Below are positions 33,360-63,182 of a stretch of 64,000 bases of DNA, piece after piece. Numbering within the stretch: position 1 is the stretch's first letter; the number at the start of each line of letters is the position of its first letter. Source of the DNA: an uncultured Nitrospiraceae bacterium (GTDB lineage: Bacteria; Nitrospirota; Thermodesulfovibrionia; Thermodesulfovibrionales; SM23-35). The position numbers and the translations under genes are program-made. The notes beneath the pieces were generated by a model. The model was given only the letters and a program-made list of their open reading frames with translations. It did not search any database and was not told the origin of the DNA. The stretch covers positions 239,428-303,427 of the forward strand of contig CAVSHB010000002.1 in NCBI GenBank assembly GCA_963727775.1, in the 5' to 3' direction.

Positions 33360-33406
33360 TTTGTACTCAAAACAATTATATCAGGTCTTCGAGTAGTGGA
33401 CTACAG
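33360..33406 (+). repeat. 65-bp repeat copy R6, left half (split by IS110-family insertion)
   Basis: TTGTACTCAAAACAATTATATCAGGTCTTC..GGACTACAG ends exactly at the IS junction. Confidence 0.7.
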
Positions 33407-33971
33407 CTTGCTATATTGTAGTTAATGATGAGATCGATATATCTTCCAGGTAAGAATTGTTTATCCGGCAAAGGAAAGAAGGAGGAGATATTTATGAAAG
33501 GGTTACGGACGAAAAGAGTAAACATGATAAAGGAAGGGGCATTGATAGTAGCGATAGACATTGGTATGGCAAGTAACCATGGGTGCTGTGTGGCAGCAGA
33601 CGGGAGGAGCACCAAGACATTCAAGTTTGATAATACAAGAGAAGGACTTGATAGATTGTGGAACATGGTACTTGCGAGCAAAACCAGATTTCAATGCAAT
33701 GAGGTCATTATAGGATATGAGTCAACCGGACCTTATGGAGAGCCGTTGGTTCACTATCTCAAGCAGAAACCAGCAACGATCGTACAAGTAAACCCACTGC
33801 ACACGAAGAGGATGAGAGAGATCAATGACAACTCTCCATTAAAGACTGATCGTAAGGATCCCCGGGTAATCGCGGATGTCATACGGATAGGGCACGCCTT
33901 AAGCGTCGTGGTCCCAGAAGGTGCTGCCGCCTATTTGAGAAGAATAAATAATGCACGGGAGAGACATATTA

Positions 33972-35592
33972 ACCCGAAAAATGCGTTTGCTATAGGCATA
34001 CCTATAGAGTCAAGCCTATCAAGGCATTGGCTGATTTGTCGATATAAAAGCTAATACTGATGCTGTTTCTTGTTCCACCTCCTGAAAATTATGTTCTTTT
34101 TATCTAAATGCAGTGCAATTACCAAAACTGGGGGGAAAGTATTGTCCCACGCGGTTAAAGAGGTAGCGCAGTTTTGATCGTACTTTCTGCGTAAAGACAG
34201 AAATCCGCAATACAGGTTTCCTTCCATCCCATCCTAATTGGGCTGGAAGGACAAGATACTTGTACCGTAAGGTTTTCAAACGTTCTGTCTTTTCTTTTTG
34301 ACCGAGTATCTGATGCCTGAACAGGACAAACAGATTGTAGATGAATACCCGAATAAGCATAGCCGCCTCCGTTGAGTAGAAATACTTCATCGAGAACCCG
34401 CCGAGTGCAAAATCCTCTTTCAGTTCCTTGATGGTATTCTCATCGTTCGCCCTATGCCTGCATTGCTTCCATACCTCATATGTAGAATCATGTGAATTGG
34501 TTATCCATACGCTATAACGATAATGCCCTGTATCAAACTCATCTCCGAAAAGAGACAACTCTTTTCCCATCGCGTGCGGTCTCTTCTTGACATCCTGGCG
34601 CACTGCAATAAACCTCCTGTCGATTATCCACTCTACATGCTGGAAGAAGAACTCAGTGATCCATATCCCTTCTTCTACCTGTGCCCAGTTTTGTTGTGCG
34701 TAGATTATCCTCTGCAGCGGACGATATAGGCGAGCAGCTATGATATATACTAATTCTCTCTTCTCAAGCAGTTCGATGAACTCCCTAAGATAAAATCCAC
34801 TGTCTGCAATAATGCCCTTGATATCGATATGACCGTTGATCCTCTGCCATGTGGATTCAAAAAATCCAATAATGTTGTTCCATGACATCACGTTGCCGGG
34901 GCGGTTCCAAAGATTTATCACATACTTGTTTCTGTTAAGAAATGCCAGAAGCGGGCTGTGGCTACCACGGCCCTTCTTCTTCGGGTTATATCCCCTCTTG
35001 ACTCCCTCCTGTTTTCCGTATCGCTCAAGGACTGTAGAATCGAACGTCAACCAGTCCTCTTTGAGCTCTTTCCAGGGGATCAATCTCTTCAAGTATCCCC
35101 ATAATCCCTCCGACATCTCTTCCACTTCCTTCAGTTTTCTGATCTTCCTGAAAAGCCTGCCCAATGTCGTCGAGGCGATAGGAAGCCTCTTCACTGCAAA
35201 AAGATCGGTGAAAATCTCCTGCCAACCAAGATAAAGTAGATGAGAAAACCTGCTGCCTCCCGCATAGATCAGAAGGATGTATGCCAATACCTTGCTGTAT
35301 ATCCCCATTCCATTGGGTGAACTCTCATGGATCGGAATCACCTCTTGCAAAATTCCTCTCAATTTGATCTTTTCAAAAAATGCAGCCAATAAACTGAATC
35401 CCCCATATGCCGTCATCTTCTTCTCCGTAAATCCAATCCTTACTTTATTTATTTCGATCTTTGTGCTACATTTTGACTGCATATTTCTATTCTCCTTTCG
35501 TTTAGAGTTGATGGTCGGGTAAACCTATTGATTCTAATACGAAAGGAGAATTTCTTCGGGGATATTATTTTAGGTCAACTGCACTTTTTGGG
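33972..35592 (-). mobile_element. IS1380-family insertion sequence (copy B), 1621 bp, TSD TTAA
   Basis: TTAA at 33968-33971 and 35593-35596. IRs CCCGAAAAATGCG / CACTTTTTGGG. Confidence 0.7.
34100..35482 (-). CDS. IS1380/IS4-type DDE transposase
   Basis: 460 aa; GYNPKKKGRGSHSP...HRANDENTIKELKEDF motifs. Confidence 0.8.
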   Translation of the reverse strand: MQSKCSTKIEINKVRIGFTEKKMTAYGGFSLLAAFFEKIKLRGILQEVIPIHESSPNGMGIYSKVLAYILLIYAGGSRFSHLLYLGWQEIFTDLFAVKRLPIASTTLGRLFRKIRKLKEVEEMSEGLWGYLKRLIPWKELKEDWLTFDSTVLERYGKQEGVKRGYNPKKKGRGSHSPLLAFLNRNKYVINLWNRPGNVMSWNNIIGFFESTWQRINGHIDIKGIIADSGFYLREFIELLEKRELVYIIAARLYRPLQRIIYAQQNWAQVEEGIWITEFFFQHVEWIIDRRFIAVRQDVKKRPHAMGKELSLFGDEFDTGHYRYSVWITNSHDSTYEVWKQCRHRANDENTIKELKEDFALGGFSMKYFYSTEAAMLIRVFIYNLFVLFRHQILGQKEKTERLKTLRYKYLVLPAQLGWDGRKPVLRISVFTQKVRSKLRYLFNRVGQYFPPSFGNCTAFR

Positions 35593-36383
35593 TTAAAGAG
35601 CGGACCGCTCTTCTCAACCAATTACGGCAGTTTGTGTTTCTCATATTCCCAGAATTTGGCCGAATAATAAAGACGATATTCTGCAAAACATCCTTACATA
35701 TACTCAAGAAATATACGACACCGGCAAAGGTATGCAGCGTAAATATAGAGAAACTTGGAGGGGAAATGAGGAGATGTAGCATGGGCAAATTCGGGGTAGA
35801 ACATGCTACGGCGCTGATCAATTATGCAAAGACCACCATCGGTATTCAAGAAGGGTTGGACGGATTAGTTATGGATATACAGCACGCCCTCGTCCAGCTG
35901 GAGATGGTCGATAGTCTCATAGCGGAACTGGAGCACGAGATGGAGACAACCCTACAGCGCATACCCTACAGTCGCAAACTCCTGTCAATCAAAGGGCTCG
36001 GGATAGTAACGGTAGCAGGGCTTATTGGTGAGATAGGCGACTTTACAAAGTTTAAAACGCAGTCTGAGATAGCGAAGCTTGCCGGTCTTGACCTGTACGA
36101 AGTAAGCTCCGGGAAAAGACAAGGACAGAGGAGGATATCAAAGAGGGGCAGAAGCCTGTTACGGAAAATACTGTATTATGCCGCCATGCAGACAATCAGA
36201 AAGAACGGCATTATGCATGAGTACTACCAAAGACTGATAGGCCGGGGCATGAAAAGTATCATGGCGCTCGTTGCAGTATCCAGGAAACTATTGAGGATCA
36301 TATTTGCAATTGTAAGGGATGACACTGAATTCATAATGAATCATGAAGCTCAGAGAAAGGAGGAGATGAGAAAGGCCGCTTAG

Positions 36384-36636
36384 AGTTATAATTCACGTAG
36401 GCGGGGAGATTATCGTTTTCTTCCTTTAAGGCGCAATGCGACCTTCGACTACAGAATACATAACTCCCCGTCGACATTCTAACTCCAATTAAGCAAGGTA
36501 AAAGCGTTCAATACGACTTTCAAATTACAAGGGTTGGGTAGGATGTCACATACAAGATGGGGGATAACCGTCTACGAGAATAGATATTTCTATCTAAGTC
36601 CACATATAAAAATATATCTTGACTGGAATAAACAAG
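36384..36636 (+). ncRNA. candidate IS110-family bridge RNA / seekRNA (3' structured non-coding region of element A)
   Basis: Conserved with element B: GGCGGGGAGATTA...CGACCTTC[variable]TAACTCCCCG...TTAAGCAAGGT. The variable segment GACTACAG equals the left target flank GGACTACAG. Confidence 0.55.
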
Positions 36637-36650
36637 GAAGGAAGCTTGCC
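36637..36650 (+). repeat. 65-bp repeat copy R6, right half (GAAGGAAGCTTGCC)
   Basis: Directly follows the IS110 element A right end. Confidence 0.65.
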
Positions 36651-61040: not shown

Positions 61041-61379
61041 AAAACAAAAACGTTTCTAACACCTTCTACTGGTTTATTATTGTCAAGAACTTTTTACGGA
61101 GTAACTCCCCTCTGATAGAGACAAGCCACTACTAAGGTTTCCTGGCTTCAATGGTTTCTGCTTCGTTCTTTGCCCCCAGATCCCTTGTCTCATTACGTAA
61201 TCCATTCTGCATGTTTGAGAGCCAATTCTGAAAAAGCGGCTTCGTAGAAAGCTATAGGATCGATTATCTCAGCATGACCCATATTACGGTATCCCCTGGA
61301 TTCGGCGTTTCTCTTTTTTATGCCTCCTCTTGGCTCCTTTCACTTAACCTTATATCAACCTTCTCACTTCCATCTCCAT

Positions 61380-61573
61380 TAGGAGGAAGTCACTTTAGTC
61401 TTTGGTGTAGCACCTTGCCTGACACTGGTAATTCGAGGGTCTCAACAGAGCCCTGACCTTGCTTAATCGAGACTAAGGTGCAAGCGGGGAGTTACAAGCT
61501 CCGCATGAAGGTCGGCTCAGCCGCCTTAGGTATCAGGTCGGTAATCTCCCCGCTTACACGCCAATACTATAAG
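61380..61573 (-). ncRNA. candidate IS110-family bridge RNA / seekRNA of element B (conserved core; the 3' non-coding region extends to 61069)
   Basis: Revcomp GCGGGGAGATTACCG...GGCGGCTGAGCCGACCTTC[ATGCGGAGCTTG]TAACTCCCCGC...TTAAGCAAGGT. The variable segment matches the element's own left target flank plus donor end (..TGCGGAG|CTTG..). Confidence 0.5.
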
Positions 61574-62836
61574 TTATGCAGCCTCCTGGTATTGAAGTGA
61601 GACTATAGAGAAATCTTTTTTGTATACACTTTGGTCACGCACAACAGCAAATATGATTCCAAGAAGTTTTCTTGCTACGGCGATCAGCGCCTTGGTCTTA
61701 GGCATGCCCCGCTCAAGGTACTTTTGATATTGATCGTGCATTATTCCACCTCTGCGGACTGTGTTGAGCGAGGCAAAGTACAAAAGTTTACGCAGCAGGT
61801 GACGGCCTCGCTTAGATATGCGTCGCTTCCCCTTGTATTGGCCAGAACTGATCTCATAAAGGTCCAGCCCTGCGAGCTTTAGGATCTCGGAGAGGGTTTG
61901 AAACTTCCGAAAATCACCCACTTCACCGATAAGACCGGCAGTGGTAACCTCTTTAATCCCCTTTATCGAGAGGATCGAGCCACTGTAGGGAATCTGCTTC
62001 AGATAATACCCCATTTCCTTTTCCAGATCCCCGGTAAAGGACTCAGCAGCGTCCATGGCGATAAGAAGTTCTCTTATCTCACGTATAATGCTCGTCATGC
62101 CTTCGGTTACACCTATAGAAGCTGTTGCAGCCTCATAGAGGGCCTTGGCGCGATCTTCCTTCAGCTTTCCGCGGCTGACCTTATTGATCGTTGCACTCAA
62201 ATTATCAAGACCGTACGCGACAATATCCTTGGGTGCTGGGCACTGCGCAAGGAGATATCGGGCAGTCAACGTCTTTACATCCTTCATTACCTGCAAAAAC
62301 TCAGGAAAGATAATCGCAAGCAAGCTCTGGAGCTGGTTCACCAGGGATACATAACGCTCGTTGCTCCTTTCCCTGGCCTGAGTGAGCCTCCTGAGTTTGG
62401 CCGCTGGACCTTCCGGGATCACTACAGTCAGGGCGTGGCCAAGTGCCATAATATCAGCGATAACCTTTGGGTCTTTCTGGTCGGTCTTGTTCGGCGAATT
62501 ACCCTGAAGCTCCTTAAGCCTCTTAGTGTGCATAGGGCTTACTTGTACCATGTGTACGCCTCTCGCACGCATGAAATGAACAAGAGGTTCGGCATACGGC
62601 CCGGTGGACTCGTATCCAAAAACAATATCTTCGATGTTATGGAGCTTTTTGGCATAAGATACACGATCCCAGAACTCTTGGAAACCCCTGCCGTTGTTCC
62701 AGAAGGCAAAGGGCTTCACATCGCTTCCGTCCGGACAGCGCCAGTATCCAAAATGTCTATCCTTTCCCATATCAGCTGTCACAATCATCGTTCTACCATT
62801 GACTACTTTAAACTTTTTTGTTTTACTCTTCTTCAT
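61574..62836 (-). CDS. IS110-family (DEDD) transposase, intact
   Basis: 420 aa; N-terminal RuvC-like DEDD domain; C-terminal conserved KRRISKRGRHLLRKLLY. Confidence 0.85.
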   Translation of the reverse strand: MKKSKTKKFKVVNGRTMIVTADMGKDRHFGYWRCPDGSDVKPFAFWNNGRGFQEFWDRVSYAKKLHNIEDIVFGYESTGPYAEPLVHFMRARGVHMVQVSPMHTKRLKELQGNSPNKTDQKDPKVIADIMALGHALTVVIPEGPAAKLRRLTQARERSNERYVSLVNQLQSLLAIIFPEFLQVMKDVKTLTARYLLAQCPAPKDIVAYGLDNLSATINKVSRGKLKEDRAKALYEAATASIGVTEGMTSIIREIRELLIAMDAAESFTGDLEKEMGYYLKQIPYSGSILSIKGIKEVTTAGLIGEVGDFRKFQTLSEILKLAGLDLYEISSGQYKGKRRISKRGRHLLRKLLYFASLNTVRRGGIMHDQYQKYLERGMPKTKALIAVARKLLGIIFAVVRDQSVYKKDFSIVSLQYQEAA

Positions 62837-63182
62837 GGCTATACTCCTTTCTTTGGTTTGGATTTAACCAACTCGCACATTGGTCTGAATCAAGAAAGAG
62901 TATAGCCTTCTTTAACAAGGCCTAACTCTACAACAATATAGCAAGCTCCGCAGCCGAAATGTATTGAAATTATTGCTGTATACTGGTACAAATATTGAGA
63001 TCTTAAAAGAACAGTTTTTATAAAAAGGTTTCAGGTGTTGTTTGTCTTACGGAATTGGGGTAAAGATGAGTAGCATAATATTATTAACCCATTAGGTTAA
63101 TAATATATTGAAATTAATTTAATACACGGTTATACTATTTAAAACGACAAAGCTCGAAAGAGAGTGCAATAATAAAAATCTT

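What the first reader, a model, noticed from the sequence alone, without database searches (positions are those of the whole stretch)
36384..36636. Conserved 3' structured non-coding RNA in both IS110 elements whose variable loop matches each element's own insertion flank: bridge-RNA / seekRNA candidates
Downstream of each IS110 transposase stop, the two otherwise about 65%-identical elements share a colinear motif series (second locus: 61380-61573, - strand): GGCGGGGAGATTA, then CCTAAGGCG, then CGACCTTC, then a variable segment, then TAACTCCCCG, then TTAAGCAAGGT. GGCGGGGAG and CTCCCCGCC can pair as a long-range stem. The variable segment differs between the elements. In A it is GACTACAGAATAC, and A's left target flank is GGACTACAG. 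In B it is ATGCGGAGCTTG, and B's left target flank plus IS left end is ..CTGCGGAG|CTTGCTAT... Covariation of an internal RNA loop with the individual target sequence is the defining property of IS110 bridge RNA (IS621) and of IS1111/IS110 seekRNA guides. Here it sits at the 3' end of the element, consistent with the IS1111-like arrangement.
Basis: partly seen in the sequence, partly recalled or inferred. Interest (0 to 1): 0.8.

Follow-up and report, generated by a model that had tools for sequence, protein, structure and literature searches.

The report
Bridge RNAs of two IS110 elements
Just downstream of each of the two IS110-family transposase genes in this window lies a roughly 150-nt two-loop guide RNA gene whose loops match that element's own insertion site and own ends, which is the already known bridge RNA / seekRNA mechanism, here in a branch of the family I did not find described.

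Summary
Both IS110-family elements carry a conserved structured RNA gene right after the transposase stop codon: A at 33407-36636 on the + strand, with its tnp split by an IS1380-family insertion, and B at 61069-62945 on the - strand.

The RNA has two modules, each a stem, an internal loop and a hairpin. Across 63 relatives the structure is 96.6% paired, and 31 of 39 pairs show compensatory changes.

- **Module 1 reads the target.** The 3' side of its loop equals the left flank plus an AG core. The 5' side is complementary to the core G plus the right flank. Across 57 distinct guide pairs this tracking beat all 5000 permutations.
- **Module 2 reads the element's own ends.** It matches LE (CTTGCT) and RE (ACCAG), with compensatory changes. 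One is in element A itself: RE ACAAG, loop ACAAG.
- **A handshake-like position** in module 2 covaries with the first base of the right flank (p = 3e-5).

Close relatives of B show natural reprogramming of guide and target together.

This is a bridge RNA / seekRNA as described in 2024. The twist is that the recombinase is a long (420 aa) protein closer to an IS110-group than to an IS1111-group reference, while the RNA sits at the 3' end in the IS1111-like guide order. Verdict: new member of a known kind, moderate interest. Transcription and function were not tested.

The parts
33407..36636 (+). Element A. IS110-family IS, native length 1606 bp, interrupted by an IS1380-family IS at 33973-35592. 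Left end CTTGCTATATTG, right end ..TTGACTGGAATAAACAAG.
   Evidence: The ends were defined by the family consensus and by multi-copy comparisons. Removing 33973-35596 restores a roughly 420-aa tnp ORF that is 46% identical to B's.
33494..33972 (+). Element A tnp, N-terminal part (DEDD/RuvC-like domain), up to the IS1380 insertion point.
   Evidence: Pfam PF01548, E = 1.6e-24. Reading frame.
35597..36383 (+). Element A tnp, C-terminal part (Transposase_20 domain, SSG motif), ending at stop codon 36381-36383.
   Evidence: Pfam PF02371, E = 2.9e-25. The restored protein aligns without gaps to B's over 405 residues.
36400..36472 (+). A, RNA module 1 (target-binding loop). Outer stem GGCGGGGAG(A)UUAU / AUAACUCCCCGUC; inner hairpin 36428-36445 with a bulged A.
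   Evidence: Fold. Covariance-model hit at 36386-36565, 135.8 bits. Helices 1-2 are 97% paired, and 19 of their 21 pairs show compensatory changes.
36416..36425 (+). A, module 1, 5'-side guide UUUUCUUCCU. It is complementary to the top strand of core AG plus right flank GAAGGAAG (36635-36644): 8 Watson-Crick pairs and 2 rU-dG wobbles.
   Evidence: Direct reading. Family test for the right flank: 5.93 of 8 matches against 3.76 +/- 0.17 when permuted.
36447..36454 (+). A, module 1, 3'-side guide GACUACAG. It is identical to the left flank 33399-33406 including core AG, so it would pair with the bottom strand. The next 3 nt (AAU) sit where most relatives have CUU, the start of the left end.
   Evidence: Family test for the left flank: 4.33 of 6 matches against 2.03 +/- 0.16.
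36473..36547 (+). A, RNA module 2 (donor-binding loop). Outer stem GACAU../..AUGUC; inner hairpin 36501-36520 with a bulged A.
   Evidence: Helices 3-5 (92-98% paired). In A these stems carry compensatory substitutions relative to the consensus (alignment).
36491..36497 (+). A, module 2, 5'-side guide AAGCAAG. It is complementary to the top strand of the left end, CTTGCT (33407-33412).
   Evidence: In relatives whose left end is CGTGCT or CGAGCT, the loop changes to AGCACG or AGCUCG.
36527..36532 (+). A, module 2, 3'-side guide ACAAG plus a handshake-like G. ACAAG is identical to A's own unusual right-end terminus AAACAAG (36630-36636). The G equals the first base of the right flank (36637).
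   Evidence: all other relatives have ACCAG in both loop and right end, except L069, which has ACTAG in both. Handshake covariation, Fisher p = 2.9e-5.
36619..36636 (+). A, right-end terminus with the -35-like TTGACT (36619-36624). Joined to the left end (CTTGC + TATATT, 33407-33417) in a circle, it would give TTGACT-N17-TATATT.
   Evidence: Direct reading. The hexamers and spacing are conserved in the relatives. That the promoter functions is inferred from the IS110/IS1111 literature (PMC11187229).
61069..62945 (-). Element B. Intact IS110-family IS, 1877 bp.
   Evidence: A 1883-bp short-read contig that is 99.95% identical breaks exactly at these ends.
61574..62836 (-). B tnp, 420 aa, DEDD plus Ser recombinase.
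   Evidence: Pfam PF01548 + PF02371. NCBIfam NF033542 'IS110 family RNA-guided transposase', 188.7 bits. In the alignments to IS621, B's E76, D119/D122 and the S331-G332 motif sit opposite ATGTY, KTD..D and ESG; equating these with IS621's catalytic E60, D102/D105 and S241 (PMC11208158) is by motif, not by residue number.
61483..61554 (-). B, RNA module 1 (target-binding loop).
   Evidence: Fold. Covariance-model hit at 61391-61568, 172.6 bits.
61529..61538 (-). B, module 1, 5'-side guide ACCUGAUACC. Its reverse complement is GGTATCAGGT. It pairs with core G plus 6 of the 8 right-flank bases TAGAAGGT (61061-61068).
   Evidence: A relative with this same 10-nt guide (L085) sits next to TATCAGGT, 8 of 8.
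61495..61506 (-). B, module 1, 3'-side guide AUGCGGAG plus CUUG. 7 of 8 bases are identical to left flank CTGCGGAG (62946-62953). CUUG equals the first 4 nt of the left end (handshake-like).
61410..61481 (-). B, RNA module 2 (donor-binding loop). Its 5' guide AAGCAAG is at 61458-61464. Its 3' guide ACCAG is at 61425-61429, followed by a handshake-like U at 61424 that equals the first right-flank base T (61068).
61081..61086 (-). B, right-end -35-like TTGACA. Together with the left-end TATATT (62935-62940) it would form TTGACA-N17-TATATT across a circle junction.
   Evidence: Direct reading and family conservation. Function is inferred.

Best explanation
Each element encodes a bridge RNA (also called a long seekRNA), made from the tnp-sense strand immediately after the tnp stop codon.

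**What the RNA looks like.** It has two similar modules. Each is an outer stem, a large internal loop, and an inner hairpin with a bulged A.

**Module 1 is the target-binding loop.**
- The 5' side of its loop base-pairs with the top strand of the core G (sometimes AG) plus about 7-8 nt of the right half of the target.
- The 3' side has the same sequence as the left half of the target plus the AG core, so it pairs with the bottom strand.
- In most relatives, 3 nt then follow that copy the start of the left end (CUU).

**Module 2 is the donor-binding loop.** It does the same for the joined ends of the excised circular element.
- The 5' side is complementary to the left end, CTTGCT.
- The 3' side equals the right-end terminus ACC-AG.
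- One or more following nt copy the first base of the target's right flank.

**What is shown here by sequence analysis:**
- the boundaries of the elements;
- the AG core, which is CT on the other strand, as in IS621;
- the RNA structure;
- all four guides and their covariation with the flanks and ends.

**What is inferred from published work on IS621, ISEc11 and ISEc21:**
- the element excises as a circle;
- the RE-LE junction creates a TTGACA-N17-TATATT promoter that transcribes tnp together with the RNA;
- the RNA is processed and bound by the DEDD/Ser recombinase;
- the RNA bridges target and donor DNA, and strands are exchanged at the core without a target-site duplication.

**State of the two copies.** A is a dead copy, because its tnp is broken by an IS1380-family insertion, but its RNA gene still fits the family model over its full length. 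B looks intact.
For: **Structure.** 39 pairs were tested across 63 sequences. 96.6% of cells are paired, and 31 pairs show changes on both sides. 0 of 500 shuffles reached the observed value. Sliding the register gives at most 48% paired. Frequent G-U pairs indicate that the tnp-sense strand is the one that folds. The reverse strand scores 35.9 bits against 172.6.

**Ubiquity.** One hit per element, always directly 3' of tnp, in 84 of 87 related loci.

**Target guides.** Left flank: 4.33 of 6 matches against 2.03 +/- 0.16 when permuted. Right flank: 5.93 of 8 against 3.76 +/- 0.17. 0 of 5000 permutations reached either value.

**Natural reprogramming among transposases that are each 85-89% identical to B's.**
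- L085: guide TATCAGGT, flank TATCAGGT.
- L083: guide TTTCAGGT, flank TTTCAGGT.
- L088: guide TCGTCGGT, flank TCGTCGGT.

**Donor guides, with compensatory changes.**
- A: right end ACAAG, loop ACAAG.
- L069: ACTAG in both.
- L067 and L077: left end CGTGCT, loop AGCACG.
- L053: left end CGAGCT, loop AGCTCG.

**Handshake-like covariation.** Fisher p = 2.9e-5.

**Protein.** IS110-family RNA-guided transposase, with residues aligned to IS621 motifs that contain its catalytic residues.

**Boundaries.** Multi-copy comparisons and a contig that breaks exactly at B's ends.

**Published mechanism.** PMC11208160, PMC11208158, PMC11187229.
Against: - There is no expression data, so the RNA's 5' and 3' ends are unknown.
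- No sigma-70-like promoter or intrinsic terminator was found next to the RNA in B. A has only weak 9-of-12 promoter-like matches at background frequency and no terminator.
- No Rfam family matches.
- B's own right flank matches its guide at only 6 of 8 positions.
- A's handshake position in module 1 (AAU) does not match its left end.
- A few relatives have single mismatches between module 2 and their ends (L023, L015).
- No empty target site was recovered.
Confidence: 0.9

Rival explanations
1. Only module 1 is a guide: a short, target-only seekRNA of about 75 nt. Module 2 would be a protein-binding scaffold, a processing signal or a 3'-end structure that does not read the element's ends.
For: Siddiquee et al. 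found a short 70-100 nt seekRNA sufficient for ISEc11 transposition (PMC11187229). The ends are nearly invariant in this family, so complementarity between module 2 and the ends rests on few independent changes.
Against: The few changes that do exist are compensatory on both sides: A, L069, L067, L077 and L053. The base after ACCAG covaries with the first base of the right flank, p = 2.9e-5. Module 2 mirrors the architecture of module 1, including the bulged A.
Confidence: 0.07
2. The conserved region acts as DNA rather than RNA. It would be a set of subterminal recombinase-binding sites or single-strand DNA hairpins. The similarity to the flank would reflect a copied junction sequence.
For: IS110/IS1111 elements do have subterminal inverted repeats. 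A short one (TATT..G) exists here.
Against: The helices tolerate many G-U pairs, which would be A-C mismatches on the other strand. The covariance model is strongly strand-specific. One loop side is identical to the flank and the other side is complementary to it, in a fixed register around a core. This is the bridge-RNA pattern, not a duplicated junction.
Confidence: 0.02
3. The region is an ordinary 3'-UTR regulatory or stabilising structure of the tnp mRNA, and its resemblance to the flanks is chance.
For: The structure starts 0-40 nt after the stop codon and has no promoter of its own.
Against: Tracking of the flanks across 57 distinct guide pairs beat every one of 5000 permutations on both sides. 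Guide and target are reprogrammed together in relatives whose transposases are 85-89% identical to B's.
Confidence: 0.01

Closest known systems
IS621-type bridge RNA of the IS110 group (Durrant et al. 2024, PMC11208160; Hiraizumi et al. 2024, PMC11208158)
   Same: - Two internal-loop modules, one for the target and one for the donor.
- Each module has one guide for the bottom strand of one half-site and one guide for the top strand of the other half-site, around a shared core dinucleotide.
- The core here is AG on the tnp-sense strand, which is CT on the other strand. CT is the IS621 core.
- Handshake-type positions match the non-cognate DNA.
- The recombinase is a DEDD + Ser protein, and a promoter would form across the circle junction.
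   Different: - The RNA lies 3' of tnp in the right end, not in the left end.
- The guide order within each loop is reversed: the top-strand complement comes first.
- The geometry equals that of IS621 only if the DNA is read from the opposite strand.
- The handshake-like bases extend the guide that pairs with the bottom strand.
- The recombinase is 420 aa against 326-328 aa, and is only distantly similar to IS621 (E = 1e-7).
IS1111-family seekRNA / right-end-encoded bridge RNA (ISEc11, ISPa11, ISKpn4; Siddiquee et al. 2024, PMC11187229; Durrant Fig. 6)
   Same: - The non-coding region lies downstream of tnp.
[quoted passage not shown]
- The left end is short and the right end is long.
- The element probably shares a transcript with tnp.
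- Module 1 (about 75 nt) corresponds in size to the short seekRNA. The two-module RNA (about 150-165 nt) corresponds to the 'long seekRNA'.
   Different: - The transposase is not of the IS1111 type. It shares only a C-terminal 142-aa similarity with IS4321 (E = 1e-6), and it is 420 aa rather than about 340.
- The subterminal inverted repeat is about 4-8 bp, not 11-13 bp.
- The donor loop is a simple internal loop. Durrant et al. describe a multi-loop for many IS1111 elements.
IS110-group elements with a downstream non-coding region (exceptions noted by Siddiquee et al., Fig. 1b 'green' group)
   Same: A long IS110-type transposase combined with a 3' non-coding region. This is the published category that best fits.
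   Different: I could not check whether this family is one of the ISfinder entries in that group, because no ISfinder sequences were available. The text I read gives no RNA structure or guide map for that group.
ISPpu9 / Ssr9 small RNA (PMC12288879)
   Same: An IS110-family element with a small-RNA gene downstream of tnp and repeat-like targets.
   Different: This comparison rests on the abstract only. No sequence comparison was made.

Membership tests
IS110-family bridge RNA (functional class, Durrant/Hiraizumi 2024) | Encoded in a non-coding end of an element whose only protein is a DEDD (RuvC-like) + Tnp-domain recombinase | tested here: met
   PF01548 + PF02371 and NF033542. The RNA lies between the tnp stop codon and the right-end terminus.
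IS110-family bridge RNA (functional class, Durrant/Hiraizumi 2024) | Conserved secondary structure with two internal loops, supported by covariation | tested here: met
   96.6% paired, 31 of 39 pairs compensatory, 0 of 500 shuffles.
IS110-family bridge RNA (functional class, Durrant/Hiraizumi 2024) | One loop carries two guides that match opposite strands of the left and right halves of the target around a core, and they covary with the flanks across orthologues | tested here: met
IS110-family bridge RNA (functional class, Durrant/Hiraizumi 2024) | The second loop carries two guides that match the right-end and left-end termini (the donor junction) around the same core | tested here: met
   AAGCAAG against CTTGCT, and ACCAG against the right end ..ACCAG. 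Five compensatory cases, including element A.
IS110-family bridge RNA (functional class, Durrant/Hiraizumi 2024) | Handshake guide positions that match the non-cognate DNA | tested here: met
   Module 2: Fisher p = 2.9e-5. Module 1: CUU equals the start of the left end in most relatives, though not in A.
IS110-family bridge RNA (functional class, Durrant/Hiraizumi 2024) | The RNA is transcribed, binds the recombinase and is required for recombination | not testable with these tools
   No expression or biochemical data are available.
IS110-family bridge RNA (functional class, Durrant/Hiraizumi 2024) | Match to a curated covariance model | tested here: not met
   Rfam 15 gave no hit at the gathering threshold or at E <= 10. 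The authors' own models were not available, so this says little.
IS110 group in the strict sense (IS621-like arrangement) | Bridge RNA in a long left end upstream of tnp; short right end | tested here: not met
   The left end is about 90-110 bp with no RNA hit. The RNA is in the right end, which is 250-505 bp long.
IS110 group in the strict sense (IS621-like arrangement) | Transposase related over its full length to IS110-group transposases | tested here: met
   ISBth13: 26% identity over 387 aa, E = 6e-41. A Peribacillus IS110-family protein: 33%, E = 3e-63. The ISEc20 and ISSfl4 hits each cover 93% of the query.
IS1111 group | Long non-coding region / guide RNA downstream of tnp | tested here: met
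IS1111 group | In the RNA, the complement of the top strand precedes the match to the bottom strand | tested here: met
   compared with PMC11187229.
IS1111 group | Subterminal inverted repeats of 7-17 bp (usually 11-13 bp) with terminal extensions of 7 bp (left) and 3 bp (right) | tested here: not met
   Only TATT(NNN)G is shared, about 4-8 bp, with some covariation. The extensions are 7 bp on the left and 4-6 bp on the right.
IS1111 group | Transposase of about 330-350 aa related over its full length to IS1111-type transposases | tested here: not met
   The protein is 420 aa. Against IS4321, only 142 C-terminal residues align, at 25% identity and E = 1e-6.

The most novel reading that the evidence does not exclude
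This may be a distinct, so far undescribed subgroup of RNA-guided IS110 recombinases. Its members are found in MAGs labelled Nitrospirota, Deltaproteobacteria/Desulfobacterales, Planctomycetota (Scalindua, Brocadiaceae) and other groups. It combines three things:
- a long recombinase that resembles an IS110-group reference rather than an IS1111-group one;
- an IS1111-style 3' bridge RNA;
- two simple IS621-like internal loops and a short subterminal repeat.

That would make it either an independent inversion of the tnp-RNA module relative to the ends, or an intermediate between the two recognised groups.
Probability: 0.3. Interest if true: 0.5.

Novelty: new member of a known kind. Interest (0 to 1): 0.35.

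Why it matters
Bridge RNA / seekRNA recombinases are programmable tools for inserting, excising and inverting DNA without double-strand breaks. New orthologues with a cleanly readable guide code are therefore of practical interest.

This family offers a fully mapped code, derived from about 60 natural variants:
- both target guides;
- both donor guides;
- the core;
- the handshake-like positions.

It also provides clear cases of natural reprogramming.

For genome annotation, it explains about 250 nt of 'non-coding' sequence in each element. It also predicts each element's preferred target:
- A: GACTAC-AG-GAAGGAAG.
- B: TGCGG-AG-TATCAGGT.

For the biology of the family, it shows that an IS1111-style 3' RNA can go with an IS110-type recombinase. 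This bears on how the RNA moved between the element's ends during evolution. It does not reveal a new mechanism.

Tried and rejected
- **Rfam 15.** Searched at the gathering threshold over the whole window, and at E <= 10 on both loci. Only noise came back.
- **Promoter and terminator scans around both RNAs.** Nothing above background. I therefore dropped the idea of an independent transcription unit.
- **Empty-site searches.** I searched metagenome contigs for the joined flanks of B and of A. There were no matches.
- **Exact-protein look-ups.** P0001 and P0122 are not on record.
- **Covariance model R1 on distant relatives.** Run against ISBth13 (26% identical) and a Peribacillus element (33% identical), it gave no hit. 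The model does not reach beyond this subfamily. Reading the Peribacillus flanks by eye showed no similar ends.
- **BLASTN of element A against L005.** It returned nothing. I instead defined the IS1380 boundaries by reading frame, inverted repeats and the TTAA duplication.
- **Alternative pairing of the 5' GUGU with the CAC of the module 2 outer stem.** It is compatible with the sequences, but I did not test it separately.
- **Anchoring errors.** Loci mis-anchored in the first guide extraction (L012, L021, L044) were excluded from the permutation test. Others (L036, L054, L073, L076) were re-anchored for the alignment. L037, which is truncated, was left out of the alignment.

Full report
**What is in the window.** There are two IS110-family elements.

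Element B lies at 61069-62945 on the - strand and is 1877 bp long. It has an intact 420-aa transposase gene (61574-62836) with the DEDD_Tnp_IS110 and Transposase_20 domains. It also matches NCBIfam NF033542, 'IS110 family RNA-guided transposase'.

Element A lies at 33407-36636 on the + strand. Its transposase gene is split by an IS1380-family element at 33973-35592. That insertion has terminal inverted repeats and a TTAA duplication. Removing it restores a roughly 420-aa ORF that is 46% identical to B's protein.

A and B are therefore two different members of one family.

**Checking the observation.** The colinear motifs are all present, with two small corrections. The shared forms of the first two motifs are GCGGGGAGATTA and TAAGGCG. 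Both 3' regions fold into the same shape: a long outer stem, a large internal loop and an inner hairpin. The z-scores are -3.4 and -3.0.

- In A, GACTACAG at 36447-36454 equals 33399-33406.
- In B, TGCGGAGCTTG occurs only at 61495-61505 and at the junction 62942-62952. The chance expectation is 0.05.

**Relatives and boundaries.** A protein search found thousands of homologues. A scan of one genome per species returned 80 loci, mostly from MAGs labelled Nitrospirota, Deltaproteobacteria/Desulfobacterales and Planctomycetota. Comparing copies within one genome, and then all loci, gives very uniform ends:
- the left junction reads ..AG|CTTGCTATATTG..;
- the right junction reads ..CTTGACNNNAATAAACCAG|..;
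- element length is about 1560-1880 bp.

AG sits at both junctions. It is therefore the core dinucleotide, with one copy belonging to the element. This is as described for IS110/IS1111 elements, where apparent duplications reflect misassigned ends (PMC11187229).

A short-read contig that is 99.95% identical to B starts at GGAG|CTTGC and stops at CCAG|TA. This is what a multi-copy repeat with these ends produces in an assembly.

If the ends are joined in a circle, they give TTGACA-N17-TATATT. That is an inferred junction promoter, as demonstrated for ISEc11 and ISEc21 in PMC11187229.

**The RNA structure.** I aligned 63 distinct 3' regions. They support two modules placed back to back, each with an outer stem, an internal loop, and an inner hairpin carrying a bulged A on its 3' strand. 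For my 39-pair structure:
- 96.6% of cells are standard pairs;
- 31 pairs show changes on both sides;
- none of 500 shuffles reaches the observed values;
- sliding the partner by 1-3 columns drops pairing to 31-48%.

Many G-U pairs, and a far weaker reverse-strand score (35.9 against 172.6 bits), indicate that the tnp-sense strand is the one that folds.

A covariance model built from the alignment finds exactly one copy per element. In the window these are at 36386-36565 and 61391-61568. It also finds a copy in 84 of 87 related loci, always directly after tnp. The three loci without one are contigs that end within 0-43 nt of the end of tnp.

**Module 1 reads the target.** I anchored on the inner hairpin. 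The 8 nt on the 3' side of the loop equal the last 8 nt of the left flank, including AG. The reverse complement of the 5' side equals the core G plus the first 7-8 nt of the right flank.

| Test over 57 distinct guide pairs | Observed | Flanks permuted |
|---|---|---|
| Left flank, matches of 6 | 4.33 | 2.03 +/- 0.16 |
| Right flank, matches of 8 | 5.93 | 3.76 +/- 0.17 |

None of 5000 permutations reached either observed value.

For the two window elements:
- A scores 6 of 6 on the left. On the right it scores 6 of 8, or 8 of 8 pairs if two rU-dG wobbles are counted.
- B scores 5 of 6 on the left and 6 of 8 on the right.

Relatives whose transposases are 85-89% identical to B's settle B's right-hand guide:
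- L085 carries the same 10-nt guide as B and sits next to TATCAGGT, 8 of 8.
- L083 has guide TTTCAGGT and flank TTTCAGGT.
- L088 has guide TCGTCGGT and flank TCGTCGGT.

Guide and target are thus reprogrammed together. B itself sits in a near-cognate site, TAGAAGGT.

**Module 2 reads the element's own ends.** The 5' loop side, AAGCAAG, is the complement of the left end CTTGCT. The 3' loop side ends in ACCAG, the right-end terminus including the core.

The ends are nearly invariant, so independent tests are few. Those that exist are compensatory:
- A's right end is AAACAAG and its loop reads ACAAG.
- L069 has ACTAG in both.
- L067 and L077 have left end CGTGCT and loop AGCACG.
- L053 has left end CGAGCT and loop AGCTCG.

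Single uncompensated mismatches occur in L023 and L015.

The base after ACCAG in the loop covaries with the first base of the right flank. The A/A, G/G and T/T classes give Fisher p = 2.9e-5, and both A (G/g) and B (T/t) conform. In module 1, the three bases after the core are CUU in most relatives, which is the start of the left end. B has CUUG. A has AAU, which does not match.

These positions behave like the handshake guides of IS621, which pair with the non-cognate DNA after strand exchange (PMC11208158).

**How it most likely works.** The anatomy is that of a bridge RNA: a target-binding loop and a donor-binding loop. Each recognises both strands around a shared core.

Relative to IS621, the order of the guides within each loop is reversed, and the RNA lies 3' of tnp. 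The core is AG on the tnp-sense strand, which is CT, the IS621 core, on the other strand. Read from the other strand, the geometry becomes that of IS621, including where the handshake-like bases sit. That last point is my inference.

The remaining steps are taken from the published systems and were not shown here: excision to a circle, transcription from the junction promoter, processing of a co-transcript, and recombinase-RNA synapsis. No sigma-70-like promoter or terminator above background flanks the RNA. In some relatives the outer stem begins immediately after the stop codon, and in L017 the conserved GUGUAG just 5' of that stem includes it. Both observations fit co-transcription with tnp, as proposed for IS1111 elements.

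**Comparison with what is known.** Durrant et al. predicted bridge RNAs in 86% of IS110-group and 93% of IS1111-group elements. They placed them in the left end and the right end respectively. Siddiquee et al. showed that IS1111 seekRNAs lie downstream of tnp with the top-strand complement first. They also noted that some IS110-type elements have a 3' non-coding region.

The present family matches IS1111 in RNA location and guide order, but not in its protein:
- B's transposase aligns over its full length with IS110-group proteins: ISBth13 at E = 6e-41 and a Peribacillus element at E = 3e-63.
- It aligns only over 142 C-terminal residues with IS4321, at E = 1e-6.
- Its similarity to IS621 is distant, E = 1e-7.

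Its subterminal inverted repeat is only about 4-8 bp. Both of its loops are simple internal loops, whereas many IS1111 RNAs are said to use a multi-loop for the donor.

It therefore fits best among the published 'IS110-type with downstream NCR' exceptions. I could not check whether it is catalogued in ISfinder.

**Verdict.** The finding is correct, and it is a good example of reading a guide RNA straight from raw sequence. The mechanism is the one published in 2024, so this is a new member of a known kind. The possibility that it represents a distinct intermediate subgroup remains open, at a probability of about 0.3. No expression or functional data exist, and no empty target site was found.

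Noticed in passing
window 33973-35592 (tnp ORF 34100-35482, - strand): An IS1380-family insertion sequence (NF033539, E = 1.4e-59) sits inside element A's transposase gene. It has imperfect terminal inverted repeats, CCCGAAAAATGCG and the reverse complement of TGCACTTTTTGGG. It is flanked by a TTAA duplication at 33969-33972 and 35593-35596. It inactivates A's tnp but leaves A's RNA gene untouched.
   Followed up: yes
L089 (Logan contig, 1883 bp): A short-read assembly contig that is 99.95% identical to element B begins at GGAG|CTTGC and ends at CCAG|TA. Assembly breaks at exactly the predicted IS ends suggest that the B-type element is multi-copy in that sample, with GGAG../..TA conserved at its insertion sites.
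   Followed up: partly
window 61087-61390 (- strand): Between RNA module 2 and the right-end terminus, element B carries roughly 270 bp more than its relatives of about 1600 bp. The content and origin of this extra segment are unknown.
   Followed up: no
L055, right end: In this relative the right end is followed by a second copy of the left target sequence, GGATTTGTAG, before the expected right flank. This may be a duplicated half-target or an insertion into a tandem repeat.
   Followed up: no
L087 1-551 and L088 1-688: Two B-like elements lie about 0.5 kb downstream of another, shorter (about 340 aa) IS110-family transposase gene. This might mean that these elements target sequence in or next to another IS of the same superfamily.
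   Followed up: no
flanks of many loci, e.g. L054, L046/L047, L064/L065, L016: Many family members sit in short tandem or repeat-like sequences, for example CGCAGAG|ACGCAGAGGGCGCAGAG and CACGAAG|AACACGAAG. Their left and right half-targets therefore resemble each other. This is reminiscent of the REP-type targets reported for other IS110/IS1111 elements.
   Followed up: no
window about 63030-63047 (- strand reading, left of element B): The sequence CAACACCTGAAA is the reverse complement of TTTCAGGTGTTG. That resembles the right-flank target class of B-type elements (TATCAGGTGTT). The insertion site may lie within an imperfect inverted repeat, or this may be chance.
   Followed up: no
alignment A4, columns 12-15, 105-110 and 177-182: The 5' GUGU/GUGA just upstream of module 1, and the GGUG(C/A) that closes module 2, are both complementary to the same CAC(C) segment between the modules. 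Both also covary with it, so alternative conformations are possible.
   Followed up: no
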